This document shows positions 6,401 to 54,938 of a stretch of DNA of 64,000 bases, in pieces; position 1 is the stretch's first letter; each line of letters begins with the position of its first letter. The position numbers and the translations under genes are program-made. The notes below the pieces were generated by a model. That model did no database searches, had not been told where the DNA came from, and saw nothing but the letters and a program-made list of their open reading frames with translations. The stretch comes from Candidatus Aldehydirespiratoraceae bacterium (GTDB lineage Bacteria; Actinomycetota; Acidimicrobiia; Acidimicrobiales; Aldehydirespiratoraceae), in the NCBI GenBank assembly GCA_965203375.1, contig OZ241886.1, positions 2,431,249 through 2,495,248 on the forward strand, read 5' to 3'.

Positions 6401-6466
6401 GATCAGGCTCGGAGCGCCGGACCGCCGTGAACGCCGCGGCCCCGGCGCTGTGAACCCCCCGGTGCC

Positions 6467-9162: not shown

Positions 9163-9894
9163 TCAGCCGGACTCGGCGTCGTCGCCCTCGGTGTCGACAT
9201 CGGCGGCGTCGTCGCCCTCGGTGTCGACATCGGCGGCGTCGTCGCCCTCGGTGTCGACATCGGCGGCGTCGTCGCCCTCGGTGTCGACATCGGCGGCGTC
9301 GTCGCCCTCGGTGTCGACATCGGCGGCGTCGTCGCCCTCGGTGTCGACATCGGCGGCGTCGTCGCCCTCGGTGTCGACATCGGCGGCGTCGTCGCCCTCG
9401 GTGTCGACATCGGCGGCGTCGTCGCCCTCGGTGTCGACATCGGCGGCGTCGTCGCCCTCGGTGTCGACATCGGCGGCGTCGTCGCCCTCGGTGTCGACAT
9501 CGGCGGCGTCGTCGCCCTCGGTGTCGACATCGGCGGCGTCGTCGGACGAGGAGTCAGCGTCGGCGGCTTCGTCCGTGTCGGTTGAGCCGGCGGCTTCACC
9601 TGCGTCGTCGGCGTCGTCGGCGTCGTCGGTCCGGTCGACCGCCCGGCGCACGACATCGGGGACCCGGCCGCCGGTGAGGTCGTCGATCTTGTCGACCACG
9701 GCCTCGGCCACATCGCCGGCCTTGTGGGCGGCCTTGCCCGCCACATCGCCGGCCTTGTCCCAGACATCACCGGCCACGTCGCCGGCCTTGCCGACCAGGT
9801 CCCCCGCCTTGTCGCGAGCCTTGCTGGCCAGATCGCCCATCACGCCTTTGGCCTTGTCGGCAAAATCCTTGTCGTCCATGTCGTCCTCTCCCAT
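9163..9894 (-). CDS. acidic repeat protein: N-terminal KAGD-repeat (CsbD/LEA-like) region + (DDAADVDTEG)x12 C-terminus
   Basis: ATG at 9894 preceded by GGAGAG RBS; N-term DKAKGVMGDLASKARDKAGDLVGKAGDVAGD...; plus-strand ORFs over the same DNA are mirror frames. Confidence 0.65.
   Translation of the reverse strand: MGEDDMDDKDFADKAKGVMGDLASKARDKAGDLVGKAGDVAGDVWDKAGDVAGKAAHKAGDVAEAVVDKIDDLTGGRVPDVVRRAVDRTDDADDADDAGEAAGSTDTDEAADADSSSDDAADVDTEGDDAADVDTEGDDAADVDTEGDDAADVDTEGDDAADVDTEGDDAADVDTEGDDAADVDTEGDDAADVDTEGDDAADVDTEGDDAADVDTEGDDAADVDTEGDDAADVDTEGDDAESG
9184..9543. repeat. perfect tandem repeat, 30 bp x 12 (coding, in-frame)
   Basis: gccctcggtgtcgacatcggcggcgtcgtc repeated 12 times with no mismatches. 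Confidence 0.95.
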
Positions 9895-9971
9895 CGTCGA
9901 TTCTCTCCTGCCGGGCAAAGCTAACGGGCCCGGAGCCCGATCAGTTCCCCTCGATGCGGCGAGGGCCGAAC

Positions 9972-25432: not shown

Positions 25433-26349
25433 CAGAAGGCCAGCTCGCGCACGTCGAAGTACTCCCGGATGCGGTCGCCCACGAAATTGAGGGCCAGAAC
25501 GGTGAGAAACATGGCGGCGATCGGGAACATGGCCACGTGGGGAGACTGCTGGAGGTCGCGGAGCTGGGCCCCGTCCACGATCATCTTGCCCCACGAGATG
25601 GCCTCGTCGCCCGCCACCGACAGGCCCAGAAAGGCCAGCGCCCCCTCGGCCACCACGGTCACGGCCATGCCCAGCAGGGTCAGGGCCCCCATCGGGATCA
25701 GCACGTTGGGGAGCAGCTCCCGCACGATGATGCGGGCCCGGCGGGCGCCCAGCACCCGGGCCGCGGTCACGAACTCCCGCTCGGCGTACACCAGGGTGGT
25801 GGCCCGGGCCAGCCGCCCGACCGGGGCGATGGCCAGGATGCCGAGGGTGAGGCTCACCACCAGCAGGGTCCGGTCCAGGGTGGCGGTGATCAGGATGGCC
25901 AGCACCAGGGCCGGGAACGACAGCAGCACGAAGAAGACGAAGCCGATGAGCTGGTCGAGGCGGCCCTTGAAGAAGCCGGCCAGGATGCCCAGCCCGCCCC
26001 CGAAGACGATCCCGAAGCCGATGGCGAACCCCCCCACGGCCAGGCTGATCCGGGCCCCGTGGACGGTGCGGGCGAACACGTCCCGGCCCAGCGAGTCGGT
26101 GCCGAAGAACCAGTCTGTTGACGGCGCCAGCCGGGGGCCGCCCGCCCCCACGTCGGTGGGGTCGGTGAGCGGCAGGACCGGGGCCAGCACCGCGGCCCCC
26201 ACGACGGCCGCCACCCAGCCCGCGGCCAGCCAGAAGCCGAGCCCGAGCCGGCGTTGCTTCCCGCCGCCCGCGCCGCCCGCGCCGTCCGCCATCTCCTGAC
26301 CGGCGGAGGTCATGGCACCCGCGCCGTCGGTTGAACCGGCGGGGGTCAT
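25432..26349 (-). CDS. peptide ABC transporter permease (DppC/OppC-like)
   Basis: 6 TM, ABC transporter permease (EAA-loop-like) region; ATG overlaps DppB stop (ATGA). Confidence 0.8.
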   Translation of the reverse strand: MTPAGSTDGAGAMTSAGQEMADGAGGAGGGKQRRLGLGFWLAAGWVAAVVGAAVLAPVLPLTDPTDVGAGGPRLAPSTDWFFGTDSLGRDVFARTVHGARISLAVGGFAIGFGIVFGGGLGILAGFFKGRLDQLIGFVFFVLLSFPALVLAILITATLDRTLLVVSLTLGILAIAPVGRLARATTLVYAEREFVTAARVLGARRARIIVRELLPNVLIPMGALTLLGMAVTVVAEGALAFLGLSVAGDEAISWGKMIVDGAQLRDLQQSPHVAMFPIAAMFLTVLALNFVGDRIREYFDVRELAF

Positions 26350-27347
26350 GCCGCCCGCACCCTGGGGTCGAGCCACGAGTAGAGCAGGTCCACCACGAAG
26401 TTGACCACCACGAAGCCGACCGCGATCACCACCACCGCGGCCAGCACCACCGGGAAGTCGTCGCGGATCACCGCGGTGACGATCTCCCGGCCGATGCCGG
26501 GTATGCCGAAGATCTGCTCCACCACCAGCGAGCCCCCGATGAGGGTGCCGGTGTTGAGGCCGAACACGGTCACCATCGAGAACATGGAGGGCCGCAAGGC
26601 GTGGCGGAACATGATCCGGACCGGGGTGAGCCCCTTGGCCCGGGCCATGTGGACGAAGTCCTCTTGGAGGGTGGTGATGAGGTCGGTGCGCAGCAGCCGC
26701 TGGTAGGCGGCGGCCAGCGGCAGCCCCAGGGTGACCGCGGGCAGGATCAGCGACCGGAGCCGCACCAGCAGGCCGGCGTCGTCAAAGGCGGAGGGGAGGA
26801 CGCTCCAGCGCAGGGTGAACAGGTACAGCAGCACCACGCCCATGGCGAAGACCGGCACCGACAGCAGCCCGAAGGACCCGATGGTGGAGGCCCGGTCGAA
26901 GGAGCGGTTGGCCCGGTAGGCCGAGGCCACCCCCCAGGGGATGGATACCCCCAGCGCCACGGCCTGGGCCATGGCCATCAGCAGCAGCGACTCGGGGAAC
27001 TTCTCCCGGAGCACCTCGCCCACCGGCTGGTTGTTCTGGAACGAGGTGCCGAAGTCGCCCCGGATCAGATCGCCGAGCCACAGGAAGTAGCGGGGGGCCA
27101 GGGGTCGGTCGAGGTGGTATTCGGCCCTGGCCTCGGCGATTATCTCGCAGTCGCCCTTGGGGTTGAGCGACGTGGACCGGTCCTCGGCCGCGCCGGCGTA
27201 GACCTCGGTGCAGTCCTTCTCGGCCAGCGGGCCGACGATGTTGACCAAGGGGTCGCCCAGCACGTTCAGGGCCGCGAAGGCGGTGAAGGTGACGGCCAGA
27301 AGGACCAGCACCAGCATGGCTGCTCGCCGGGCCACGAACCCGGTCAC
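26346..27347 (-). CDS. peptide ABC transporter permease (DppB/OppB-like)
   Basis: typical DppB N-terminus and TM layout. Confidence 0.85.
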   Translation of the reverse strand: MTGFVARRAAMLVLVLLAVTFTAFAALNVLGDPLVNIVGPLAEKDCTEVYAGAAEDRSTSLNPKGDCEIIAEARAEYHLDRPLAPRYFLWLGDLIRGDFGTSFQNNQPVGEVLREKFPESLLLMAMAQAVALGVSIPWGVASAYRANRSFDRASTIGSFGLLSVPVFAMGVVLLYLFTLRWSVLPSAFDDAGLLVRLRSLILPAVTLGLPLAAAYQRLLRTDLITTLQEDFVHMARAKGLTPVRIMFRHALRPSMFSMVTVFGLNTGTLIGGSLVVEQIFGIPGIGREIVTAVIRDDFPVVLAAVVVIAVGFVVVNFVVDLLYSWLDPRVRAA

Positions 27348-27354
27348 GGCGACG

Positions 27355-27500
27355 GCCCCCGCCGGGCGAACCCGGTCCGGGCGACGAACCTGGTCACGGC
27401 GCTGACCGGGGCCGGGCGAACCCGGTCACGGCGACGGCCCCCGCCGGGCGAACCCGGTCACGGTGCTGACCCGGGCCGGGCGGACCGGGATGTGCCCGTC
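27355..27500. repeat. intergenic array of ~42-bp hairpin-containing repeats (x3.5) between SBP and permease genes
   Basis: GACCGGG-GCCGGGCGAA-CCCGGTC units at ~27362, 27404, 27446, 27478. Confidence 0.6.
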
Positions 27501-27521
27501 ACGGAGCGGCGGCGGGCGGGG

Positions 27522-29333
27522 TCACTCCTGGCTCAGCCAGACGCCCTGCAGCCAGATCCGGCCCTGGTTGTTGCAGAACAGCTCGTCGCCGTCGGGGCCC
27601 CTCTGGCCGCAGATGCCCCGGACGTTGTCGCGGGCGCCGACGGTCCAGTTGGCGTGGTTGAAGAAGATGTAGGTGTAGGAGTCCCGCATGTTCTCCTGGA
27701 CCTGGCGCCAGACCTCCACCCGCCGGTCGAGGTCGTCGCTGGACCGCTGCTCGAACATGAGCGCGTCCCGCTCCGGGTCGCAGTCGCGGGGCCAGTTGAT
27801 CGAGATGGGGCCGACGGTGGAGCACTGGAGCCACACCACGTCGTTGTCGGGGTCGGGCTCGCCGAACTGGCGCCAGGTGACCACGTTGTACTGGCCGGTG
27901 GCCACCTCGATGATGTGCTGGTCTTGGAGCAGCTCCTGTTGGGTGACGTTGAAGTAGTCCTCCCAACTGTCGCTCAGCAGGTCGGCGATGCGGGTCTGGA
28001 TCACCGAGGGGCCCGAGTACTGGAGCTCCACGTTGATCTTGCCGCCGGTGCAGTTCTCGGGGAAGTCGCCGCAGTATCCGGCCACCAGCGGGGCGGCCCT
28101 ATCTGGCTGGTTGGTCTCCTGCACCACGTCGGGGTTGTGCCAGATGAGGTCGGGGTGGAACATGGTGTCGGCGGCCGGGGCGGTGCCCTGGCGGATGAGC
28201 GACAGGTAGGCGTCCCGGTCGGTGGCGAAGGTGATGGCCTGGCGGGCCCGGATGTCGTCGAAGGGGGGCACCTGGACGTTCAGCATGGCGAACTCCTCGC
28301 TGGAGCGAAGGTTCTCGATGGTTCTCACCCCGTCGCCGCCCCTCAGGGTCAAGATGGCCTCGGAGCTGCTGGTGACCACCACGTCGAGATCGCCGGCGAT
28401 CAGGCGCTCGGAGGCCACGACCGAGTCGGTTATGGGGTAGATCTCGATGCGGTCCAGATAGGCGTCGACCATGTCGGCGGCCCAGTAGTCGGGGTTCTTC
28501 GCCAGCACCGTCGACTGGTCCTGGGTCCGGCTCTCGATCATGTAGGGCCCGGTGCCGATCGGCATCTGGTCGAGGCTGGGGTCCTCGGCCCGGAGGGCCA
28601 GCCACTCCGACGGGAGTATCTGGCCGAGCTGGCTGGTGAGGCTCTGGGGGAAGAAGGCGAAGGACCGGACGGGATTGAACTGCACCGTGTAGTCGTCGAT
28701 CTTCTCGATGGCGTCTTCCTTGAACACCCCGTCCACCGTGTAGGTGGGCCTCACCGCCAGGCTGACGACCAGGCTGGCGAGCTGGGCCTGGAAGGTGGCC
28801 ACCACGTCGTCGGCGTCGAGCTCGGTGCCGTCGTGGAAGCGGATCCCCTCCCGCAGCTTGAGCTGCCACGACGAGCCGTCGCCGATCTTGGTGAACGACT
28901 CGGCCAGGTGCGGCACCCAGTTGCCGTTGACGTCCCAGTAGGCCACCGGCTCGACGACCGGGAAGGTCATGACGTAGGCCGAGACGGCGAAGTTGTTGGC
29001 GGTGGGGTTCAGGCCGTCGGCTTCGGCCTCCACCCCCACCCGCAGGGTGCCCCCGAACTGGGGCGCCTCCTCGACCGGATCGGCCGGCTCGGCCGGCACC
29101 GTGTCGGTGGGCGCGGTCAGCTCGCCCGGGTCCTCCTCTTGGGTGGTGGTGGGTTCGGGCTCGGGTGCGGGGGCGGGGGCGGTTTCGGTGTCGCCCCCCA
29201 CTTCAGCCTGGCCCCCGCCGGGGTCGGGGGCGGTTTCGCCGTCGCCGCCGCCCCCGCAGGCCGCGGCGGCGAGCCCCAGCACGATCAGAGTGGCGGACAG
29301 CGCCGACCGGCTCGTTCGGTGAGATCGGATCAT
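27522..29333 (-). CDS. ABC transporter substrate-binding lipoprotein, family 5 (DppA/OppA-like)
   Basis: lipobox LGLAAAAC, then family-5 SBP sequence; long upstream ORF extension rejected. Confidence 0.8.
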   Translation of the reverse strand: MIRSHRTSRSALSATLIVLGLAAAACGGGGDGETAPDPGGGQAEVGGDTETAPAPAPEPEPTTTQEEDPGELTAPTDTVPAEPADPVEEAPQFGGTLRVGVEAEADGLNPTANNFAVSAYVMTFPVVEPVAYWDVNGNWVPHLAESFTKIGDGSSWQLKLREGIRFHDGTELDADDVVATFQAQLASLVVSLAVRPTYTVDGVFKEDAIEKIDDYTVQFNPVRSFAFFPQSLTSQLGQILPSEWLALRAEDPSLDQMPIGTGPYMIESRTQDQSTVLAKNPDYWAADMVDAYLDRIEIYPITDSVVASERLIAGDLDVVVTSSSEAILTLRGGDGVRTIENLRSSEEFAMLNVQVPPFDDIRARQAITFATDRDAYLSLIRQGTAPAADTMFHPDLIWHNPDVVQETNQPDRAAPLVAGYCGDFPENCTGGKINVELQYSGPSVIQTRIADLLSDSWEDYFNVTQQELLQDQHIIEVATGQYNVVTWRQFGEPDPDNDVVWLQCSTVGPISINWPRDCDPERDALMFEQRSSDDLDRRVEVWRQVQENMRDSYTYIFFNHANWTVGARDNVRGICGQRGPDGDELFCNNQGRIWLQGVWLSQE

Positions 29334-29560
29334 CGAGATGCACCCCCGAGGTGAGAGCTTCCGGGAGCGGGGCCGCGGGTCCCGAGGGGGCCGCGCCGCC
29401 GCCGCTCGCCGTTGGTGGATGCCACCACTTTGGCCGCAAAAAGCGCCGCCCGCCACTCCCACCGACCAGCTTTCTTGCGGCAGCCCTCTCCGTGGCAGCT
29501 CAGCCCGTGGCCAGAGCGAGGACTAGCACCACCGTGGACGAGGATTCGCTGGCCGTGGCG

Positions 29561-32763: not shown

Positions 32764-33324
32764 CTATTCCTCGAGCTCGTTCATGCCCTCGAGCTCGGGG
32801 GCCAGCCGGGTCACCAGCGCGACGCCGTCCTTGACCCCCACCACGATGACCCGGGCGCCCGCCTCGATCTCGCCGCCCTCGCCCTCGTCGACGGGGGCGG
32901 CGGTCATCCGGGCCTGCGACCCGCCGACGTCGAGCACGATCCGGCCCCGGTGTACCGATGAGACGGGCAGGGCCACCCGGGCGATGGTCCCCTCCAGCTC
33001 CTTGTCGGTCACCTCGCTGGACACCTCGGTGCGGCGGAGCCAGGCGAACACGGTGCTGTTGAGGACGCCGGCCACCACCCCGACGGCCAGGGCCAGGCCC
33101 AGCGCGGTCACCGGCCCCGAGCCGGCCCAGCGGGTCAGCAGCCCGGTGACGCCGAAGAAGGTGAGCACGAAGGCCAGGGTGCTCAAGGGGATGACCGACA
33201 TGACTCCGCCGCCGTCGCCGTCGGCGTCGGCGTTGCCGCCCAGGTCGGCGTCTCCCCCGCTGAAGGCGAACCACACCAGCAGCGGGGCCCCGGCCATCAG
33301 CGCGAAGAGGAACAGCCCGTTCAC
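32764..33324 (-). CDS. NfeD-like membrane protein (flotillin partner)
   Basis: TM helices plus C-terminal OB-like domain, immediately upstream of flotillin; GTG start after AGGAGA. Confidence 0.6.
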   Translation of the reverse strand: MNGLFLFALMAGAPLLVWFAFSGGDADLGGNADADGDGGGVMSVIPLSTLAFVLTFFGVTGLLTRWAGSGPVTALGLALAVGVVAGVLNSTVFAWLRRTEVSSEVTDKELEGTIARVALPVSSVHRGRIVLDVGGSQARMTAAPVDEGEGGEIEAGARVIVVGVKDGVALVTRLAPELEGMNELEE

Positions 33325-33367
33325 TCTCCTGAAGCTAGTGTCTGGCCGTGGATTCTGCTCGCCCAGT

Positions 33368-33505
33368 GCCTGAGTTCTCTGCTGTCTTCGGACTCGCCGT
33401 CCCGAGGCGGCGCCGTGAGTTCTCCGTGAGCCCCAGCCCCGTCGTCCCGGGGCGGCGCCGTGAGTCGTCGGTGGGCTTCGGACTCGCTTACCCGGCGGCG
33501 GCGCC
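33368..33505. repeat. ~46-bp imperfect tandem repeats (x3-4) each containing GTGAGT, running into the cyclase start codon
   Basis: units at 33370, 33415, 33460, 33506. Confidence 0.6.
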
Positions 33506-33509
33506 GTGA
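33426..33509 (+). CDS. candidate upstream mini-ORF (27 codons) whose TGA overlaps the cyclase GTG
   Basis: GTG 33426 ... TGA 33507-33509; preceded by a 4-codon ORF (33415-33429) with the same GTGA overlap. Confidence 0.3.
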   Translation: MSPSPVVPGRRRESSVGFGLAYPAAAP

Positions 33510-34468
33510 GTTTCAGCCCGGCTTTCTTCGAGGTCAGGGACCGGGTCCGCAACTGGGGGCGGTGGGGGGACGACGACCGGCTCGGCACCTTGAACCTGAT
33601 CGACGACGCGGCGGTGGCCCATGCCGCCTCGCTGGTGCGGTCCGGGCGGCGGGTGTCGTGCGCCCTGGAACTGAAGCACGAGGGCGGGGTGCAGATCGGG
33701 CAGATGCACGGCCGGATCAACCCGCTGCACGCCATGGTGAAGATCGACAGCCCCGACCTCGGCGACCCCGACGGCAAGGGGCTGGTCGCCCACTTCTCCG
33801 ACGACATCGTGACCATGGCTCTGCAGGCCGCCACCCACTGGGACGGGCTGTCCCACGTGAGCTACGAGCACACCCTCTACAACGGGGTGTCGGTCGACAC
33901 CATCACCGCGGTGGGCGGGGCCACGGTGCTGGGCATCGAGAACGTCCGCTGGCTGACCGGGCGGGGCGTGCTGCTGGACGTGGCCGCGGCCCGGGGGGTG
34001 GAGCGGCTGCCCAGCGACTGCGAGGTCACCGGGGCCGACCTCGACGAGGCGGCGGAGTTCGGGGGGGTGGAGATGCGGCCGGGCGACATCGTGCTGCTGC
34101 GGACCGGGCGGATGCAGGTGTTCCGCGAGATGGGGGCCACGGAGTACGTCGCCGGCCCCGACCGCGACGGCACCAGCCCCGGGCCGGGCCTGGACGCGGT
34201 GGAGTGGTTCCACCGCCGCGACGTGGCCGCCGTGGCCAACGACACCTACATCTTCGAGGCGTTCCCCGGCCCCAGATGGGACGACGCCCTGGCCGTTCAC
34301 TGCCTGCACGTGGTGGACATGGGCATGACCCAGGGCCAGAACTGGGACCTGGAGGAGCTGTCGGCAGCCTGCGCGGCCGAGGGCCGCTACGAGTTCCTGT
34401 TGGCCGCCAACCCCGAGCCGTTCGTCGGCGGCTGCGGCTCCCCAGTCAACCCGGTGGCGATCTTCTAA
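33506..34468 (+). CDS. cyclase family protein (kynurenine-formamidase-like fold)
   Basis: cyclase family (PF04199)-like sequence with His-rich metal-site residues; GTG start. Confidence 0.75.
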   Translation: MSFSPAFFEVRDRVRNWGRWGDDDRLGTLNLIDDAAVAHAASLVRSGRRVSCALELKHEGGVQIGQMHGRINPLHAMVKIDSPDLGDPDGKGLVAHFSDDIVTMALQAATHWDGLSHVSYEHTLYNGVSVDTITAVGGATVLGIENVRWLTGRGVLLDVAAARGVERLPSDCEVTGADLDEAAEFGGVEMRPGDIVLLRTGRMQVFREMGATEYVAGPDRDGTSPGPGLDAVEWFHRRDVAAVANDTYIFEAFPGPRWDDALAVHCLHVVDMGMTQGQNWDLEELSAACAAEGRYEFLLAANPEPFVGGCGSPVNPVAIF

Positions 34469-48565: not shown

Positions 48566-49072
48566 TCAGGGCAGGAACCGGCTGACCGACTCGACCACGC
48601 AGGCCGGCTTCTCCGCGCCCTCGATCTCCACGGTGATGGTGATGACCGCCTGCACTCCCCCGCCGGGCAGTTCGGATACCTCGGTGACCACGGCCGAGCC
48701 CCGAACCCTAGACCCCGCCGTCACCGGATGCGGGAACCTCACCCGGTTGACGCCGTAGTTGATCCCCATCGAGATCCCCTCCACCCGCATGACCTCCGGG
48801 AGGAAGAGGCTGGTGAGGGCCAGGGTCAGATAGCCGTGGGCGATAGTGGCCCCGAACGGCCCCTTCGCCGCGGCCTGCGGATCGACGTGGATCCACTGGT
48901 GGTCGCCGGTGGCCTCCGCGAACAGGTTTATGCGGTCCTGGTCGATGGTGATCCAGTCGCTGTTCCCGAGATGGCGGCCGACGGCGCCGAGCAGTTCCCG
49001 GGGGGAGGCGAACACGGCAGTCACCCGCCCGACGCTACCGGGCCACCGGCCGAGGTCACCGGCCGAGGTCAC
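48566..49072 (-). CDS. MaoC-like (R)-hydratase / hot-dog fold protein
   Basis: hot-dog fold, ...DHQWIHVD...GATIAHG. Confidence 0.75.
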   Translation of the reverse strand: MTSAGDLGRWPGSVGRVTAVFASPRELLGAVGRHLGNSDWITIDQDRINLFAEATGDHQWIHVDPQAAAKGPFGATIAHGYLTLALTSLFLPEVMRVEGISMGINYGVNRVRFPHPVTAGSRVRGSAVVTEVSELPGGGVQAVITITVEIEGAEKPACVVESVSRFLP

Positions 49073-49095
49073 CGGCCGAGGTCACCGGCCGCCCT
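49041..49095. repeat. 13-bp direct repeat x3.5 (ACCGGCCGAGGTC) in divergent promoter region
   Basis: four consecutive units overlapping the putative MaoC start. Confidence 0.7.
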
Positions 49096-50305: not shown

Positions 50306-50970
50306 CCGAGCTTCACGCCACAACCACCGGCTCGGGGCCGCCGGTGGTGCTGCTGCACGGCATGGGCGACGACTCGTCGGTGTGGGACCAGACGGTGGCC
50401 GACCTGGCCGGCGACTTCGCCTGCACCGCGGTGGACCTCCCGGGCCACGGCCGCTCCCCCGTCCCCGACGACCCCGACGCCTACCGGCGCGAGGCGGTGC
50501 TCGAAGCCCTCGACGCGGTGCTGGAGCAAACCGGCCCCGCCCTGGTGGTGGGCCACTCCCTCGGCGGCTACCTGGCCCTGGCCCACCGGATCACCCGCCA
50601 GGACGGCCCGACGGCCGCCGGTCTGGTGCTGGTCTCGACCGGCCCCGGGTTCCGGGACGCCGACTCCATGGCCCAGTGGAACGACCGGGTGAACGCCAAC
50701 GCCCCCAATCTCTCCGTGCCCCCCGCCGCGGCCATCGGCCTCCACGTCGATTCGATGGTGATCGACCGGCTGGAGGAGGTGACGGTCCCGGTGGGGCTGG
50801 TGGTGGGCGACGGCGACCGCAACTTCATGGGGGCCAACGACTACATGGAGGCCCGGCTGTCCGACGTGAGGCGGGTGACCGTCGAGGGCGGCCGCCACCG
50901 GGTGATGCTGACCCATCCCGGCGAAGTGGCGGCCATGGCCCGCCGAGTGGCCGCCGCGGCCGGCATGTGA
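50302..50970 (+). CDS. alpha/beta-fold hydrolase
   Basis: VVLLHGMGDDSSVW...GHSLGG; ATG overlaps CDF stop (ATGA). Confidence 0.65.
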   Translation: MTELHATTTGSGPPVVLLHGMGDDSSVWDQTVADLAGDFACTAVDLPGHGRSPVPDDPDAYRREAVLEALDAVLEQTGPALVVGHSLGGYLALAHRITRQDGPTAAGLVLVSTGPGFRDADSMAQWNDRVNANAPNLSVPPAAAIGLHVDSMVIDRLEEVTVPVGLVVGDGDRNFMGANDYMEARLSDVRRVTVEGGRHRVMLTHPGEVAAMARRVAAAAGM

Positions 50971-51131
50971 GCACCCGGACTGTGACATGGGACGAAGACT
51001 GACACCGGGGTGTGACAGCGCAGGCCGCGGGGCCGCCGAGAACTGACGCGAACAGGCAGGAGGCATCGGGGTGAGACATCGCAAGACCCTCATCAAAGGT
51101 TGAACACGGAGACGGACGTAACACCGACAAC

Positions 51132-52103
51132 ATGAGCACAAATGACATGGGCTTAGACACGGACACATTCGGGCCGGTAGTAGCTGCCGGCTGGCTGGCC
51201 GACAACCTCGACTCGGTGGTGGTCGCCGACGTGCGGTGGTACCTGGACGGCCGCTCGGGCCGGGACGCCTACGACCGGGGCCACCTGCCGGGGGCCCGCT
51301 TCGTGGACCTCGACACCGACCTATCCGGGCGCTCCACAACCGTCGGGGGCCGCCATCCCCTGCCCGACCCCAACCGCTTCGCCGAGGCCATGGGCCGCCT
51401 CGGCATTGGCGACGGCGACCCGGTGGTGGTCTACGACGACGCCGGCGGGGTGATCGCGGGTCGGATGTGGTGGATGCTCGACTCGCTGGGACATCCCGCG
51501 GCGGTGCTCGACGGCGGCATCGGGGCCTGGGCCGGGCCGCTGGAGACGGCCCCGGCCGCCTGGGCGCCGGCTGAGTTCACCCCCCGGCCCTGGCCCGAGA
51601 ACCGCTTCGTCGGCATCGACGAGATGGACCGCCTCCGGGACCGGCCCGGCGCCGTGGTCATCGACGCCCGCTCGCCCGAGCGCTACCGGGGCGACCCCAA
51701 CCCCATCGACCCCCGCTTCGGCCATGTGCCCGGGGCGCTGAACATGCCCGCCACCGCCAACCTGGCCGCCAACGGCAGGCTGCTGCCCGCGACCGAACTG
51801 CGGGCCCGCTACACGGCCATCGGCGCCGCCGAACCGGGCGCAGAAACACCAGGCGCCGAGGCGGAAACATCGGGCGCAGAAACACCGGGCGCAGAATCCC
51901 CCGACCCAGGGGCGTCCAACTCCTCCAACATCATCGCCTACTGCGGCAGCGGCGTGTCGGCCTGCTGCGATCTGCTGGCCCTGCGCCGGGCCGGACTGGG
52001 CAACGGGCGGCTGTTCGTGGGGTCGTGGTCGGCCTGGGGCGCCGATCCCGCCCGGCCCGTCGAAACCAGCCAGCCTGCGGTCGGCGGCAGCCACGGCGGT
52101 TGA
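51132..52103 (+). CDS. two-domain rhodanese sulfurtransferase (3-mercaptopyruvate-ST-like)
   Basis: active-site loop CGSGVSA; low-complexity PGAE insertion. Confidence 0.8.
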   Translation: MSTNDMGLDTDTFGPVVAAGWLADNLDSVVVADVRWYLDGRSGRDAYDRGHLPGARFVDLDTDLSGRSTTVGGRHPLPDPNRFAEAMGRLGIGDGDPVVVYDDAGGVIAGRMWWMLDSLGHPAAVLDGGIGAWAGPLETAPAAWAPAEFTPRPWPENRFVGIDEMDRLRDRPGAVVIDARSPERYRGDPNPIDPRFGHVPGALNMPATANLAANGRLLPATELRARYTAIGAAEPGAETPGAEAETSGAETPGAESPDPGASNSSNIIAYCGSGVSACCDLLALRRAGLGNGRLFVGSWSAWGADPARPVETSQPAVGGSHGG

Positions 52104-52159
52104 TGCCGCCAGCCGCCACCGACACCGGCGCCGACCCGCTGCGCCCAAACCCCGCCTGA
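52103..52159 (+). CDS. leader mini-ORF 1 (18 aa, MPPAATDTGADPLRPNPA), copy of the Ppx N-terminus
   Basis: ATG shares A with rhodanese TGA; its own TGA shares A with the next ATG. Confidence 0.4.
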   Translation: MPPAATDTGADPLRPNPA

Positions 52160-52215
52160 TGCCGCACCCAGCCACCGACACGGGCGCCGACCCGCTGCGC
52201 CCAAACCCCGCCTGA
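52159..52215 (+). CDS. leader mini-ORF 2 (18 aa, MPHPATDTGADPLRPNPA)
   Basis: second 56-bp tandem unit; TGA overlaps Ppx ATG (TGATG). Confidence 0.4.
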   Translation: MPHPATDTGADPLRPNPA

Positions 52216-53966
52216 TGCCGCACCCCGCCACCGACACGGGCGCCGACCCGCTGCGCCCAGACCCCAAACCGCTGGCCGCCATCGACGTGGGCACCAACTC
52301 GGTACACATGGTGGTGGCCCGGCCCGTTCCCGGCGGTCCGCCCGACTTCCTGGCCACAGAACGCATGCCGGTGCGGCTGGGCTCGGGCGGCAACGACATG
52401 AAGCGGCTCCACCCCGACGCCGTCGACCGGGCCGTGGCCGCCCTCGACGAGTGCCGCCGCATCGCCGAGGCCCACCAGGCCGACGTGGTGGCGGTGGCCA
52501 CCAGCGCGGTGCGCGAGGCGGCCAACGCCGCCGACTTCCTGCGCCGGGCCCGCACCGAGGCCGGCGTGGCGGTGGAGGTGGTGTCGGGGGTGGAGGAGGC
52601 CCGCCTGATCCACCTGGGGGCCATGAGCGCGGTGCCCATCGCGGGCCGGCCCCATCTGGTGATCGACATCGGGGGCGGGTCCACCGAGGTGATCGCCGGC
52701 ACCGGCACCGAGCCGGCCCTGGCCCGCAGCCTGAAGCTGGGCCACATCCGCCTCACCGACCGGTTCTTCCCCGGCGGAGTCGTCAAGCCCGGGGCGGTGA
52801 AGTCCTGCCGCCGCCACATCCAGTCCTTCATCGCCCCGTTCCTGCGGGAGATGCCCGAGTTCGAGACGGCGGTGGGCTGCTCGGGCACCATCGAGGCCCT
52901 GGCCCTGATGGGGGCGGCCCGCCGGGGCGCGCCCCTGCGGACGGTGGGCAACGCCGCCCTCGCCCGCGGTGACCTCGACGCGGTGGTGGCCGACCTCGTG
53001 TCCCGTCCCCGCCCGGCCGACCGGGCCGGGGCGCCCGGACTCGACCCGGGCCGGGCCGAGGTGATCGTGGCCGGCGCCGTCCTGCTCCGCCAGATGTTCA
53101 AGGCCCTGGGCATTCGCACCCTAACCGTGTCCACCGGGGCGCTGCGGGAGGGGCTGCTGCTGGACAGGTTTCACCGGAGGGACCGGTCGCCGGCCCGCGG
53201 GCTGCACCACCTCAACGACCTGCGGCGGTCCAGCGTGCTGGCCGTCGCCCGCCGCTACGACCAGGACCTCGCCCACGCCGAGCACTCCACCAACCTGGCC
53301 CTGGAGCTCTTCGACGAGACCCGGCCGATCCACGGGCTGGACGAGGCCGAGCGGGAGGTGCTGGAGGCGGCCGGGCTGCTGCACAACATCGGGCGGTTCG
53401 TGGCCCACGCCGCCCACCACCAGCACTCCTACTACCTGATCCGCCACAGCGAGCAGCTCGCCGGGTTCACCGAGAACGAGCTGGAGCTGATCGCCCAGGT
53501 GGCCCGCTACCACCGCAAGAGCGCCCCCCGCAAGTCCCACCCGAGCTTCGCCGGGCTGGACCGGGCCGATCAGCGGCGGGTCCGGCTGCTGGCCGGGATG
53601 CTGCGGGTGGGGATCGCCCTGGACCGCACCTACCGGCGTGCGGTGCGCCACGTCTCCGCCGACACCGACGACCGGGGCCTGCGGATCGCAGGTCCACACG
53701 ATCGCCGGCACCGACGCCGAGCTGGAGATGTTCACCGCCCGGGACCGCTGCGGCCTGCTGGCCGACGCCCTGGACCGCCCGGTGCGCTTCGAGATAACGC
53801 CATACGGCCTCGGGCAGTCCGGGCAAACCGAAGCCGCCGCGGCGACCGAGACCGCGCCGTCGGCCCTCAGCCGCAGAGCCGGATGACGCCACCGGACCGC
53901 CCCGGCGTGCTTTCCAGGCTGGTTCCAGGCCGGGCGCGATCCCAGCTCAGCCGCAGGGCTGGATGA
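52215..53966 (+). CDS. Ppx/GppA exopolyphosphatase with C-terminal HD domain; probable frameshift near 53687-53692
   Basis: AIDVGTNSVHMVVAR actin-like ATPase fold N-terminus, HD region HN.G..V....HH; after ~53690 the +1 frame (53638..53886) reads protein-like while frame 0 becomes Arg/Pro junk. Confidence 0.75.
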   Translation: MPHPATDTGADPLRPDPKPLAAIDVGTNSVHMVVARPVPGGPPDFLATERMPVRLGSGGNDMKRLHPDAVDRAVAALDECRRIAEAHQADVVAVATSAVREAANAADFLRRARTEAGVAVEVVSGVEEARLIHLGAMSAVPIAGRPHLVIDIGGGSTEVIAGTGTEPALARSLKLGHIRLTDRFFPGGVVKPGAVKSCRRHIQSFIAPFLREMPEFETAVGCSGTIEALALMGAARRGAPLRTVGNAALARGDLDAVVADLVSRPRPADRAGAPGLDPGRAEVIVAGAVLLRQMFKALGIRTLTVSTGALREGLLLDRFHRRDRSPARGLHHLNDLRRSSVLAVARRYDQDLAHAEHSTNLALELFDETRPIHGLDEAEREVLEAAGLLHNIGRFVAHAAHHQHSYYLIRHSEQLAGFTENELELIAQVARYHRKSAPRKSHPSFAGLDRADQRRVRLLAGMLRVGIALDRTYRRAVRHVSADTDDRGLRIAGPHDRRHRRRAGDVHRPGPLRPAGRRPGPPGALRDNAIRPRAVRANRSRRGDRDRAVGPQPQSRMTPPDRPGVLSRLVPGRARSQLSRRAG

Positions 53967-54810
53967 CCGAGCGGCCGAAGTCGGCCAGGGCCTCCTCGGT
54001 GTGGCGGAAATAGCGGAAGGCCGGCGCCAGCAGCCGGTGTACGCCCCACGACTCGGCCTCAGCCACCGCGGCGGACGGGTCGTCGCCCAGCAGCCCGGGA
54101 TGGAACGTGGTCACCTCGATCGATGCGGGGTCCCGGCCGGCCTCGGCCGCCTCGGCCCGGGCCATCTGGGCCAGGGAGGCCACGTCCCCCTCGGCCGGGA
54201 AGAAGCCGTCGCCCACCCGGCCAGCCCGGCGGGCCGAGGCCGGGCTATGGCCGCCGATGTGGACCGGCACCCGGCCCGCGGCCGGCTTGGGGTTGGAGCT
54301 GACCCGCTCGAACGACACGAACTCGCCCTCGAAGGACACGTCGTCCTCGGCCCACACCCGCCGCATCACCTCCAGGTACTCCTCGGTGCGGGCCCCCCGC
54401 CGGGCCCAGGGCACGCCCAGTGCCTCGAACTCCTCCCGCAGCCAGCCCACGCCGATCCCCAGCTCCACCCGTCCCCCCGACATGGAGTCGACGGTGGCCA
54501 CCTCCTTGGCGAAGACGAGGGGGTGGCGCTCGGCCAGCAGCGAGATGCCGGTGGCCAGCCGGATTTCGGAGGTGGCGGCGGCCACGTGGCCCAGCCAGGC
54601 CAGCGGGTCGGGGATGGGGTTGCGGCCCGACCCCGGCATCTTCCCGCTGGGCCCGTAGGGGTACACCGACTCGTACCCCTCGGGGTAGACGACGTGCTCC
54701 ACCGTCCACAGCGACTCGAACCCGGCCGCCTCGGCCGAGGCGGCCAGCTTGACGGCCCCGGGCCCGGAGGCGAAGGGCCCGGTGTTGGCGAACCCGATGC
54801 CGAACTTCAC
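53947..54810 (-). CDS. LLM-class (luciferase-like) F420-dependent oxidoreductase
   Basis: MKFGIGFANTGPFASG...; LLM fold. Confidence 0.8.
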   Translation of the reverse strand: MKFGIGFANTGPFASGPGAVKLAASAEAAGFESLWTVEHVVYPEGYESVYPYGPSGKMPGSGRNPIPDPLAWLGHVAAATSEIRLATGISLLAERHPLVFAKEVATVDSMSGGRVELGIGVGWLREEFEALGVPWARRGARTEEYLEVMRRVWAEDDVSFEGEFVSFERVSSNPKPAAGRVPVHIGGHSPASARRAGRVGDGFFPAEGDVASLAQMARAEAAEAGRDPASIEVTTFHPGLLGDDPSAAVAEAESWGVHRLLAPAFRYFRHTEEALADFGRSVIQPCG

Positions 54811-54863
54811 CGCACCCCCGCTCTATCCAATCGCCGCCAATCCGAGCGGTACCCTAACCAGCC

Positions 54864-54938
54864 GTGACCGGACCCGGCCCCCTCACCGCCTCGACCAACC
54901 ACCCCGGACCAACCTCGATCAAAGACATCGAACCGTGA
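54864..54938 (+). CDS. leader mini-ORF (24 aa, VTGPGPLTAST...) duplicating the aminotransferase start
   Basis: GTG 54864; TGA 54936-54938 overlaps GTG 54935 of the main ORF (GTGA). Confidence 0.35.
   Translation: MTGPGPLTASTNHPGPTSIKDIEP

What the first reader, a model, noticed from the sequence alone, without database searches (positions are those of the whole stretch)
52101..52217. Three 56-bp tandem units form a chain of overlapping stop/starts (TGATG) linking rhodanese to mini-ORF to mini-ORF to Ppx
The first 56 bp of the Ppx/GppA gene (ATG + 17 codons + TGA) is present three times in tandem. The rhodanese stop TGA (52101-52103) shares its A with ATG 52103. That ORF (MPPAATDTGADPLRPNPA*) ends in TGA sharing its A with ATG 52159 (MPHPATDTGADPLRPNPA*), whose TGA shares its A with the Ppx ATG 52215. 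Because the unit is 56 rather than 57 bp, each copy is its own 18-codon ORF rather than an in-frame extension. This looks like leader-peptide translational coupling or attenuation built by slippage duplication. Similar constructs recur upstream of the aminotransferase and the cyclase, so it may be a general feature of this genome.
Basis: seen in the sequence. Interest (0 to 1): 0.7.

Follow-up and report, generated by a model that had tools for sequence, protein, structure and literature searches.

The report
Variable mini-ORF relay between two genes
The start of a polyphosphatase gene has been duplicated in tandem, making a copy-number-variable chain of tiny reading frames whose stops overlap the next start; this probably lets ribosomes hop from the upstream gene to the polyphosphatase, much as mycobacterial MIRU repeats are thought to do.

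Summary
Window 52101-52265 holds 2.9 tandem copies of a 56-bp unit. Each copy begins TGATG, which gives rhodanese-stop/mini-ORF1/mini-ORF2/Ppx with 1-nt stop-start overlaps.

The array is real. Independent assemblies of the same Acidimicrobiales species carry one, two or at least two complete mini-ORFs. A 95%-identical relative carries three. The 90% relatives carry one or two homologous mini-ORFs of 17-22 codons.

Across 13 distinct units, TGATGCC is invariant, the 56-nt period has no indels, and every ATG-to-ATG spacing is 2 mod 3. The unit interiors diverge fast and equally at all three codon positions. Selection therefore appears to keep the stop-start relay, not the peptides.

There is no Shine-Dalgarno motif, promoter, terminator, significant RNA structure or Rfam match.

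Best reading: a locally generated VNTR of the Ppx initiation region that preserves termination-reinitiation coupling across a spacer that would otherwise abolish it. It is MIRU-like in logic but not a MIRU. Attenuation is not supported. The same construct recurs at five or more other gene starts in the window. All function is inferred; nothing here measures translation.

The parts
51132..52103 (+). Rhodanese (sulfurtransferase) gene. Its TGA stop is at 52101-52103 and is the first stop of the chain.
   Evidence: ORF listing; Pfam PF00581, E = 1.4e-25; GC3 frame plot.
52101..52265 (+). The whole tandem array: a 56-bp unit in 2.9 copies. It is a duplicated Ppx translation-initiation region.
   Evidence: TRF; alignment of the copies, 95% mean column identity; core found 3 times against 0 expected.
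52101..52105 (+). Junction 1, TGATG: the rhodanese stop overlaps the ATG of mini-ORF 1 by 1 nt.
   Evidence: Sequence. Orthologous junctions in relatives are TGATG or ATGA.
52103..52159 (+). Mini-ORF 1, 18 codons plus stop, MPPAATDTGADPLRPNPA*.
   Evidence: Translation. Its 5' part (CCGCCAGCCGCC) is orthologous to the first unit of L021, L029, L030 and L032.
52157..52161 (+). Junction 2, TGATG: the stop of mini-ORF 1 overlaps the ATG of mini-ORF 2.
   Evidence: Sequence. GCCTGATGCC occurs only at 52154 and 52210 in the window.
52159..52215 (+). Mini-ORF 2, 18 codons plus stop, MPHPATDTGADPLRPNPA*.
   Evidence: Translation. This unit is absent in same-species strain L030 and present in L029.
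52213..52217 (+). Junction 3, TGATG: the stop of mini-ORF 2 overlaps the Ppx ATG.
   Evidence: Sequence. ATG 52215 is the only start in frame upstream of the conserved AAIDVGTNS motif.
52215..52271 (+). The repeat-derived N-terminal extension of Ppx (MPHPATDTGADPLRPDPKP). It is 13 residues longer than the usual MT[DG][PS]RALAAIDVG start of the family and is itself a former mini-ORF fused in frame.
   Evidence: N-termini of 60 homologues. Unit alignment shows the unit core GCCGCCACCGACAC.GGCGCCGAC aligned with the Ppx sequence GCCGCCATCGACGTGGGCACCAAC.
52215..53966 (+). Ppx/GppA-HD gene as it reads in the window. An extra C at 53689 shifts the frame, and the ancestral frame ends at TGA 53884-53886.
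   Evidence: Pfam; GC3 frame switch; alignment with L021 and 8 relatives.

Best explanation
The array is a locus-specific minisatellite (VNTR). It was made by repeated tandem duplication, and by unequal exchange or slippage, of the translation-initiation region of Ppx: the stop-start overlap plus the first ~17 codons. The unit contains the TGATG junction and its length is 2 mod 3. Each extra copy is therefore a self-contained 18-codon ORF whose UGA overlaps the next AUG. Inferred mechanism: a ribosome that terminates at the rhodanese UGA reinitiates on the overlapping AUG, translates 18 codons, terminates, reinitiates again, and so reaches the Ppx AUG. That AUG has no Shine-Dalgarno motif or promoter of its own. 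The mini-ORFs would thus act as a relay that keeps Ppx translationally coupled to rhodanese across 112 nt. An untranslated spacer of that length would be expected to abolish coupling. The peptides themselves are irrelevant. Copy number changes quickly, even within the species. Any effect on the Ppx:rhodanese ratio is expected to be a modest loss at each relay step. Shown here: the repeat, its variability, and the pattern of constraint. Inferred: translation of the mini-ORFs, reinitiation, and any quantitative effect.
For: (1) The repeat is real and not an artefact. Independent assemblies carry it with diverged copies. L029 has 3 junctions, L030 has 2, L031 has 3 followed by a scaffold gap, L032/L033 have 2 and L021 has 4, all at exactly 56-nt spacing.
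(2) Constraint falls on the architecture, not the peptide. In 13 distinct units TGATGCC is invariant while only 18 of 53 columns are invariant overall; P = 2e-4 that the first 7 columns would all be invariant. Variable columns number 13/10/12 of 16 at codon positions 1/2/3. The Ppx body between window and L021 shows 12/13/27, the usual coding pattern. There are no indels within the mini-ORF units.
(3) The 90%-identity relatives have homologous mini-ORFs of other lengths: L022 with spacings 50 and 62 nt, L024 with 53, L001 with 68. All overlap stop and start as ATGA or TGATG, and all spacings are 2 mod 3.
(4) Compensatory change: at the rhodanese stop, L024 has CTGATG and L022 has ATGACG. The stop is kept and the start has moved 3 nt in the same frame.
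(5) Mini-ORF start codons can serve as real starts. In L023, and in the window/L021 lineage, a mini-ORF has fused in frame and supplies the only available Ppx start codon.
(6) No SD-like motif lies within 25 nt upstream of ATG 52103, 52159 or 52215. No promoter-like or terminator-like site was found. There is no significant RNA structure and no Rfam match.
(7) Literature. Overlapping ATGA/TGATG gene pairs were strictly coupled in 13 of 14 tested cases (PMC6728339). Intergenic distances of about 20 nt almost abolish coupling, and the last 15 nt of an upstream ORF suffice for reinitiation (PMC10666635). A short ORF can 'deliver' a ribosome, and MIRUs are cited as a natural case (PMC12548453).
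Against: There is no expression or ribosome-profiling data, so translation and reinitiation are inferred only. In L023 the first start is lost (TGATT) and the relay is broken, so it is not indispensable. Relatives at about 73% identity mostly lack the array (L025, L028). Within the window the copies are 91-96% identical, so the window alone says nothing about constraint. Generic stop-start chains are common in shuffled high-GC sequence. The C-rich spacer (52% C) is unstructured and could allow SD-independent internal initiation at Ppx. Two other start-spanning repeats in the window have periods that are not 2 mod 3: 13 nt and 45 nt. The window's Ppx carries a frameshift, so selection on it may be relaxed in this strain.
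Confidence: 0.6

Rival explanations
1. Neutral by-product. The array is slippage junk in a genome prone to tandem duplication. Each copy carries TGATG simply because the junction was inside the duplicated segment. The mini-ORFs are not translated in any way that matters, and Ppx is initiated independently.
For: The window is full of tandem repeats (116 TRF rows in 64 kb), including at convergent 3' gene ends where coupling is irrelevant (80-nt duplication, 53866 and 53946). A period of 2 mod 3 has a 1 in 3 prior. Copy number varies freely, L023 has lost the first start, and distant relatives lack the array. Generic chains are common by chance.
Against: Diverged copies (58-81% identical in L021) keep TGATGCC, the exact 56-nt period and open frames, while the interiors change at all codon positions. 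Five different unit lengths in relatives are all 2 mod 3, and one start codon was relocated without losing the overlap. Gene conversion would homogenise whole units, not only the junction. Ppx has no SD-like motif and no promoter-like site.
Confidence: 0.22
2. Regulatory leader peptides. The mini-ORFs sense translation status and modulate Ppx by attenuation or stalling. Possible signals include proline/EF-P dependence or amino-acid supply.
For: The units are Pro-rich. First units in L021 and L032 encode PPPP and the window's first unit begins MPP. Ppx/GppA acts in stringent-response and polyphosphate metabolism, where control linked to translation would make sense (background knowledge, not tested here).
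Against: No terminator or alternative structure was found and there is no Rfam leader. Peptide sequences are not conserved even within the species, and polyproline is not consistently present. The number of mini-ORFs varies from 0 to 3. The proline richness follows from the 52% C composition.
Confidence: 0.1
3. Insertion of a dispersed mobile repeat of the MIRU type at the Ppx start codon, rather than local duplication of the gene's own 5' end.
For: The architecture matches what is described for MIRUs: intercistronic position, same orientation, and ORFs coupled to the downstream gene by overlap (PMC12548453).
Against: The unit is found nowhere else in the 64-kb window. Other loci with the same architecture use unrelated units copied from their own downstream gene. 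The unit core aligns with the Ppx sequence that encodes LAAIDVGTN. L001's mini-ORF begins MANPRAPAA, like its Ppx MANPRALAA.
Confidence: 0.03
4. Assembly or sequencing artefact that inflates a single copy.
For: Copies 2 and 3 are 96% identical. A short-read scaffold of the same species has a gap inside the array (L031). The window has at least one probable indel error or mutation nearby, at 53689.
Against: The copies differ by fixed substitutions. Five independent assemblies show 2-4 junctions with diverged copies.
Confidence: 0.02

Closest known systems
Mycobacterial interspersed repetitive units (MIRUs; Supply et al. 1997, as summarised in PMC12548453)
   Same: Tandem units of tens of bp sit between co-oriented genes. 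Each carries a short ORF whose stop overlaps the next start, so the downstream gene stays translationally coupled. Copy number is variable. Both hosts are high-GC Actinomycetota. From my own recollection (not checked here), MIRU unit lengths of 77 and 53 bp are also 2 mod 3.
   Different: MIRUs are one dispersed sequence family thought to be mobile and to insert at start codons. Here each locus has its own unit, copied from the 5' end of its own downstream gene (here from the Ppx region encoding LAAIDVGTN). There is no sequence relationship to MIRUs, and the host is an uncultured Acidimicrobiales, not Mycobacterium. Mini-ORFs here also interconvert with N-terminal extensions of the gene.
Termination-reinitiation coupling at overlapping gene pairs, ATGA/TGATG (Huber et al. 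2019, 2023)
   Same: The same -1 (TGATG) and -4 (ATGA) overlaps are used. The downstream start has no SD motif. The steep distance dependence reported in 2023 explains why an untranslated 112-nt spacer would be disfavoured.
   Different: The known cases link two real genes directly. Here two or more non-functional 18-codon ORFs are interposed as relay steps, so reinitiation would have to succeed three times in a row.
Short upstream ORFs that deliver ribosomes to a coupled main ORF (mycobacterial leaderless uORFs, Shell et al. 2015 as cited in PMC12548453; synthetic 'bicistronic design')
   Same: The short ORF's only role is to bring a ribosome to an overlapping start codon. The aminotransferase locus in this window (54864-54938 leading to 54935) looks exactly like this.
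   Different: At the Ppx locus the relay is fed by an upstream gene rather than by a leaderless or SD-led uORF. It is also multi-step and variable in copy number.
Leader-peptide attenuators (trpL-type; polycysteine uORFs of mycobacteria)
   Same: A short ORF lies upstream of the regulated gene on the same transcript.
   Different: There are no regulatory codon runs conserved between strains, no terminator/antiterminator structures, no peptide conservation, and the copy number varies.
Bacterial VNTR/minisatellite loci that alter expression through copy number (contingency-type repeats)
   Same: Copy number differs between strains of one species. There is homogenisation within an array (window copies 91-96% alike, against 58-81% in L021).
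   Different: The period is not a multiple of 3, yet no frameshift ON/OFF switching results. Every unit restores the stop-start overlap, so all copy numbers seen are 'ON'.

Membership tests
MIRU (mycobacterial interspersed repetitive unit) | One sequence family dispersed at many loci of the genome | tested here: not met
   The unit core and junction motif occur only at 52101-52265 within 64 kb. Other loci use unrelated, locus-derived units. The whole genome was not available.
MIRU (mycobacterial interspersed repetitive unit) | Intercistronic position, same orientation as the flanking genes, unit ORFs with stop/start overlapping neighbours | tested here: met
   Rhodanese-TGATG-ORF-TGATG-ORF-TGATG-Ppx, all on the + strand.
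MIRU (mycobacterial interspersed repetitive unit) | Variable number of tandem units between strains | tested here: met
   Window and L029 have 2 mini-ORFs, L030 has 1, L031 has at least 2 complete and a third cut by the gap, L032 has 1 and L021 has 3. Window versus L029-L031 is 96-98% nt identical.
MIRU (mycobacterial interspersed repetitive unit) | Sequence similarity to the MIRU consensus; host genus Mycobacterium | tested here: not met
   Host test: the nearest genomes are Acidimicrobiales MAGs, so the host-genus criterion fails. Sequence test: the unit derives from the Ppx 5' coding sequence, but no direct comparison with a MIRU consensus was run, so that part was not tested.
Termination-reinitiation (TeRe) coupled ORF pairs | Co-directional ORFs overlapping by 1 nt (TGATG) or 4 nt (ATGA) | tested here: met
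   All three junctions in the window meet this. All junctions seen in 9 distinct relative sequences also meet it, except the lost start in L023.
Termination-reinitiation (TeRe) coupled ORF pairs | Translation of the downstream ORF depends on translation of the upstream ORF reaching the overlap | not testable with these tools
   This needs reporter constructs or Ribo-seq. The indirect support is absence of an SD-like motif or promoter-like site and conservation of junction and frame.
Leader-peptide transcription attenuator | Intrinsic terminator and mutually exclusive RNA structures between the leader ORF and the gene | tested here: not met
   There are 0 terminator-like sites in 50800-54100. 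The fold of 52070-52300 gives z = -0.83 against shuffles. There is no Rfam hit above noise.
Leader-peptide transcription attenuator | Conserved leader peptide or regulatory codons | tested here: not met
   Units vary equally at the three codon positions, and the peptides differ between strains and between copies.
Minisatellite/VNTR formed by local tandem duplication | Head-to-tail copies of one unit, copy-number polymorphism, concerted evolution within arrays | tested here: met
   TRF in the window and in L021. Copy numbers of 1-3 mini-ORFs. Within-array identity is 91-96% in the window and 58-81% in L021.

The most novel reading that the evidence does not exclude
In this Acidimicrobiales lineage, tandem duplication of translation-initiation regions may be a general, selected way of building copy-number-variable 'translational relays'. 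Under this reading, arrays of overlapping mini-ORFs at operon junctions and in front of leaderless genes would act as heritable, rapidly mutable rheostats of protein stoichiometry. Their proline-rich, sometimes polyproline units might make the relay sensitive to EF-P or ribosome state. The arrays would also serve as a source of new N-terminal extensions when a unit fuses in frame with the gene.
Probability: 0.15. Interest if true: 0.75.

Novelty: new variant of a known kind. Interest (0 to 1): 0.5.

Why it matters
If the relay reading is right, MIRU-style intercistronic mini-ORF arrays are not a peculiarity of one mobile repeat family in mycobacteria. They could arise de novo at any gene start by local duplication, and they survive because they conserve stop-start overlaps.

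This locus offers a natural allelic series of 0, 1, 2 and 3 relay steps, plus fused and broken variants. That series could be used to measure the per-step efficiency of termination-reinitiation.

It also has a practical side for annotation. Gene callers leave these arrays as 'intergenic' or choose inconsistent starts; called Ppx N-termini in one 90% cluster vary. Short-read assemblers break inside the arrays (L031).

Tried and rejected
(1) A generic count of chains of overlapping start/stop ORFs against dinucleotide shuffles. Shuffles gave more links than the real window (273 vs 192) and more chains, so this statistic is uninformative and was dropped.
(2) A search for the window's own rhodanese by exact sequence found nothing on record.
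(3) The metagenome-contig scan with Ppx returned only distant relatives. Close relatives came from the protein search plus contig look-ups instead.
(4) RNA structure or riboswitch: the fold is not better than shuffles. The only Rfam hit is DicF at 19 bits against a gathering score of 48, E = 0.32, which is noise.
(5) The promoter/terminator scan found nothing. That scan uses an E. coli-type consensus and may miss actinobacterial promoters.
(6) TRF did not detect the older, diverged duplications in L001 and L003. They were found by eye and by ORF analysis.
(7) Literature searches found no earlier description of locally derived relay arrays or of Acidimicrobiia intergenic repeats. The library is limited to open-access text, so absence there is weak evidence.
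(8) Readthrough fusion. Rhodanese and Ppx are in the same frame with only TGA 52101 between them. I judged this a coincidence of 2 x 56 = 1 mod 3, because strains with other copy numbers lose the co-phasing.
Full report
OBSERVATION

Tandem Repeats Finder reports window 52101-52265 as a 56-bp unit in 2.9 copies, with 93% matches and score 282. The copies are 52101-52156, 52157-52212 and 52213-52265. Each begins TGATG.

The rhodanese ORF (51132-52103; Pfam PF00581) ends in TGA 52101-52103, and that A is the first base of ATG 52103. This ORF reads MPPAATDTGADPLRPNPA* and ends in a TGA that overlaps ATG 52159. The next ORF reads MPHPATDTGADPLRPNPA*, and its TGA overlaps ATG 52215. ATG 52215 opens the Ppx/GppA-HD gene, which begins MPHPATDTGADPLRPDPKPLAAIDVGTNS.

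ATG 52215 is the only start codon in frame upstream of the conserved AAIDVGTNS motif. A 36-nt core of the unit occurs three times here and nowhere else in the window, against 0 expected in shuffles.

A caveat I established myself: chains of overlapping start/stop codons, defined generically, are not rare in high-GC DNA. Most stops are TGA, and three quarters of NTGA tetramers read as 'starts'. Shuffled windows gave more such links than the real one. The finding therefore rests on the repeat, its period and comparative conservation, not on the existence of a chain.

WHERE IT COMES FROM

The window is 68.4% G+C. The nearest genomes are uncultured Acidimicrobiales MAGs.

A protein search found Ppx homologues at 99%, 95%, 90%, 83% and about 73% identity. 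I fetched the DNA around 14 of them. L029, L030 and L031 are 96-98% identical to the window at the nucleotide level, which places them in the same species. L021 is about 93% identical. L022 and L001 are about 90%.

COMPARATIVE ANATOMY OF THE RHODANESE-PPX JUNCTION

Same species:
- L029 has the same three TGATG junctions at 56-nt spacing as the window, from an independent assembly.
- L030 has two junctions, i.e. one mini-ORF.
- L031 has three junctions and then a scaffold gap of Ns inside the array.

L032/L033 (96% Ppx identity) have one mini-ORF. Their Ppx extension is shortened by 24 nt, a multiple of three.

L021 (95%) has four junctions at exactly 56-nt spacing: MPPTAFDMSNHPPPPDLA*, MPHPATDTDDHPTRTNHA*, MPDPAINAGADPMRPDPA*, then Ppx. 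Its copies are only 58-81% identical to one another.

In the 90% group:
- L022 reads rhodanese-ATGA, a 17-codon ORF, ATGA, a 21-codon ORF, ATGA-Ppx (spacings 50 and 62).
- L024 reads TGATG, an 18-codon ORF (MPTAADPSADPAPPNPAR*), ATGA-Ppx (spacing 53).
- L001 reads TGATG, a 22-codon ORF, TGATG-Ppx (spacing 68).
- L023 has lost the first start (TGATT), and its second mini-ORF is fused in frame to Ppx (MTNPQLPADDPNADPRALAAIDVG).

All ATG-to-ATG spacings are 2 mod 3: 50, 53, 56, 62 and 68. That is the only class that lets an ORF end on a stop overlapping the next start.

At the rhodanese stop, L024 has CTGATG and L022 has ATGACG. The stop is unchanged and the start codon has moved 3 nt in the same frame. 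This is a compensatory change.

More distant relatives (about 73%) mostly lack an array. L025 has a 6-nt spacer and L028 has no chain. L003 has its own 68-nt duplication with a 23-codon ORF overlapping Ppx by ATGA, behind a different upstream gene.

ORIGIN OF THE UNIT

Aligning all units with the Ppx starts shows a shared unit core, GCCGCCACCGACAC.GGCGCCGAC. It lines up with the Ppx sequence GCCGCCATCGACGTGGGCACCAAC, which encodes AAIDVGTN. L001's mini-ORF begins MANPRAPAA, like its Ppx MANPRALAA. The units are therefore old and new tandem copies of the 5' end of Ppx itself.

Most family members start MT[DG][PS]RALAAIDVG. The window and its closest relatives carry a 13-residue longer N-terminus. 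That extension is a former mini-ORF now fused to the gene, and it was later duplicated again.

In the window the copies are 91-96% alike. The first copy keeps the 5' signature (CCGCCAGCCGCC) of the first copy of L021, L029, L030 and L032. This points to recent homogenisation or re-expansion, which is typical minisatellite behaviour.

WHAT IS CONSTRAINED

Among 13 distinct clean units from six assemblies, TGATGCC is invariant while only 18 of 53 columns are invariant overall. The probability that the seven junction columns would all be invariant by chance is 2e-4.

Variable columns number 13, 10 and 12 of 16 at codon positions 1, 2 and 3. The mean non-consensus fractions are 0.135, 0.130 and 0.135. 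In the Ppx body, window against L021 shows 12/13/27 mismatches over 1300 nt. That is the usual coding pattern, and total divergence there is only 4%.

The unit interiors thus evolve fast and without peptide constraint. The stop-start overlap, the period and the open frame are kept. Gene conversion alone would homogenise whole units, not only junctions.

WHAT IS ABSENT

- No SD-like motif lies within 25 nt upstream of any of the three ATGs.
- There is no promoter-like or terminator-like site in 50800-54100. That scan uses an E. coli-type consensus.
- The predicted RNA fold of 52070-52300 is no more stable than shuffles, z = -0.83.
- There is no Rfam family. The only hit, DicF, is far below threshold.
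- The unit is 52% C, which explains the Pro/Ala/Thr-rich peptides.

MECHANISM (INFERRED)

Published experiments bear directly on this. ATGA/TGATG-overlapping pairs were strictly coupled by termination-reinitiation in 13 of 14 cases (PMC6728339). An intergenic distance of about 20 nt almost abolishes coupling, and the last 15 nt of an upstream ORF are enough for reinitiation (PMC10666635).

A duplication that inserts 56 or 112 nt between rhodanese and Ppx would therefore uncouple them, unless the insert is itself translated and ends on an overlap. That is exactly what a unit of length 2 mod 3 containing the junction provides.

I conclude the array is a relay of mini-ORFs that carries ribosomes from the rhodanese stop to the SD-less Ppx start. 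Duplications arise readily in this genome, and selection filters them for preservation of the overlap. Each step probably loses some ribosomes, so copy number may modulate the Ppx:rhodanese ratio. I have no evidence that this modulation is itself selected.

The fusions in L023 and in the window lineage show that mini-ORF starts can serve as the Ppx start.

RIVALS

- Pure neutrality (no functional translation) remains possible at about 0.2. L023 has broken the relay, distant relatives lack it, and this genome also duplicates convergent 3' ends, where coupling is irrelevant.
- Attenuation or leader-peptide sensing is not supported by structure or conservation. The polyproline runs in some first units (L021, L032) are a lead at most.
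- A dispersed MIRU-type element is contradicted by the gene-derived, locus-specific units.
- An assembly artefact is contradicted by five independent assemblies.

COMPARISON WITH WHAT IS KNOWN

The closest known system is the MIRU. A 2025 review describes MIRUs as short repeats that insert at start codons so that an ORF within the repeat becomes coupled to the gene with -4 spacing, minimising the effect on expression (PMC12548453, citing Supply et al. 1997).

The present array works like that but is not a member. It is not a dispersed family within the sequence available, it derives from its own gene, and its host is not a mycobacterium. It also relates to ribosome-delivering uORFs and to ordinary TeRe gene pairs. 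I found no description of locally generated relay arrays in the searchable literature, but that library is incomplete.

GENERALITY WITHIN THE WINDOW

- Aminotransferase: GTG 54864 opens a 24-codon ORF that ends in the GTGA of the gene start at 54935 (spacing 71). L021 has the same with spacing 80. L022 and L024 have a single copy with TACCCT 8 nt upstream, suggesting a leaderless start.
- ABC transporter: five GTGA-overlapping mini-ORFs of 8, 14, 11, 11 and 17 codons link the solute-binding-protein stop (27522-27524) to the permease start at 27347. Four of them are copies of the permease 5' end (VTGF...).
- DEAD-box helicase (start 6467): preceded by two mini-ORFs.
- Cyclase (start 33506): preceded by a uORF built of 45-nt repeats that ends in its GTGA.
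- MaoC dehydratase (start 49024): preceded by a 13-nt GTGA repeat.

Of seven start-spanning repeat periods, five are 2 mod 3. The binomial P is about 0.045, which is suggestive only.

CAVEATS

Everything about translation is inference. The window's Ppx carries an extra C at 53689 that is absent from eight relatives, so its C-terminus is frameshifted. This is either a sequencing error or a recent mutation. If it is a real mutation, selection on Ppx expression in this strain may be relaxed. Copy number in the window itself could not be checked against reads.

VERDICT

It is of moderate interest, mainly as a natural allelic series for studying termination-reinitiation and as a recurring genome feature of this lineage.

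Noticed in passing
window 53684-53700 (extra C at 53689); true frame ends at 53884-53886: The window's Ppx has a 1-nt insertion (GATCG[C]AGG) that is absent from all eight relatives checked, including strains 96-98% identical. It shifts the last ~90 codons out of frame, so the ORF runs on to 53966. This is either a sequencing error or a recent frameshift mutation.
   Followed up: partly
window 53866-53887 and 53946-53967: An 80-nt tandem duplication lies at the convergent 3' ends of Ppx and the luciferase-like monooxygenase (CTCAGCCGCAG[A/G]GC[C/T]GGATGAC occurs twice). The Ppx C-terminus SALSRRAG* is encoded on the reverse strand of a copy of the monooxygenase 3' end. L021 shows a similar repeat. 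Duplications at gene boundaries are therefore not limited to 5' ends.
   Followed up: partly
window 27344-27525, minus strand: Between the ABC-transporter solute-binding protein (27525-29522) and the permease (26349-27347) lie five GTGA-overlapping mini-ORFs of 8, 14, 11, 11 and 17 codons, starting at 27525, 27502, 27461, 27429 and 27397. The last four are copies of the permease 5' end (VTGF...). Each unit also contains a CCGGG-TTCG-CCCGG hairpin-like palindrome. This is a longer example of the same architecture.
   Followed up: partly
window 54861-54938; L021 5128-5214; L022 4060-4080; L024 3976-3996: The aminotransferase 5' end is duplicated. A 24-codon mini-ORF from GTG 54864 ends in the GTGA of the gene start at 54935 (spacing 71). 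L021 has the same with spacing 80. L022 and L024 have a single copy. A TACCCT box lies 8 nt upstream of the first GTG, which suggests a leaderless transcript that now starts with the mini-ORF.
   Followed up: partly
window 33371-33512: A 45-nt x 3.1 repeat lies upstream of the putative cyclase (start GTG 33506). It forms a uORF of repeated 15-residue units that ends in the GTGA of the cyclase start. A high-GC3 ORF on the opposite strand (32764-33861) overlaps it and was not resolved.
   Followed up: no
window 6427-6470 and 49024-49091 (minus strand): Two mini-ORFs of 8 and 6 codons with GTGA overlaps precede the DEAD-box/DUF3516 helicase start at 6467. A perfect 13-nt x 3.7 repeat (GGCCGGTGACCTC) containing GTGA precedes the MaoC dehydratase start at 49024.
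   Followed up: no
window 9174-9544: A 30-nt unit is repeated 12.4 times at 100% identity. On the minus strand it encodes DDAADVDTEG x 12 at the C-terminus of a small, very acidic protein (ORF 9163-10416). It is either a very recent expansion or an assembly-sensitive region.
   Followed up: no
window 51833-51896; L001 2671-2735: There is an in-frame 15-nt repeat inside the rhodanese linker (GAETPGAEAETSGAETPGAES). The corresponding region in L001 is a different 30-nt repeat, so this linker is also a variable repeat tract.
   Followed up: no
L031 1400-1500: A scaffold of the same species has a run of Ns inside the 56-bp array. The gene caller then chose a false internal start for Ppx (MRPDPKPL...). 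Short-read assemblies evidently cannot resolve this locus reliably.
   Followed up: yes
window 52101-52215: With two extra units (112 nt = 1 mod 3), rhodanese and Ppx are in the same reading frame, and that frame is open apart from the single TGA at 52101. Readthrough would fuse the two proteins. I judged this coincidental, because strains with other copy numbers lose the co-phasing.
   Followed up: partly
window 51012-51135: Three short ORFs of 20, 10 and 11 codons with GTGA/TTGA overlaps chain up to the rhodanese ATG 51132. They are not repeats, and by the shuffle result such chains can arise by chance.
   Followed up: no
L021 2333-2388; L032 1445-1500: The first mini-ORF in these relatives encodes a PPPP run (HPPPPD). 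Several called Ppx N-termini in the cluster carry PPP or PPPP. These are potential EF-P-dependent pause sites, though they may simply reflect the C-rich composition.
   Followed up: no
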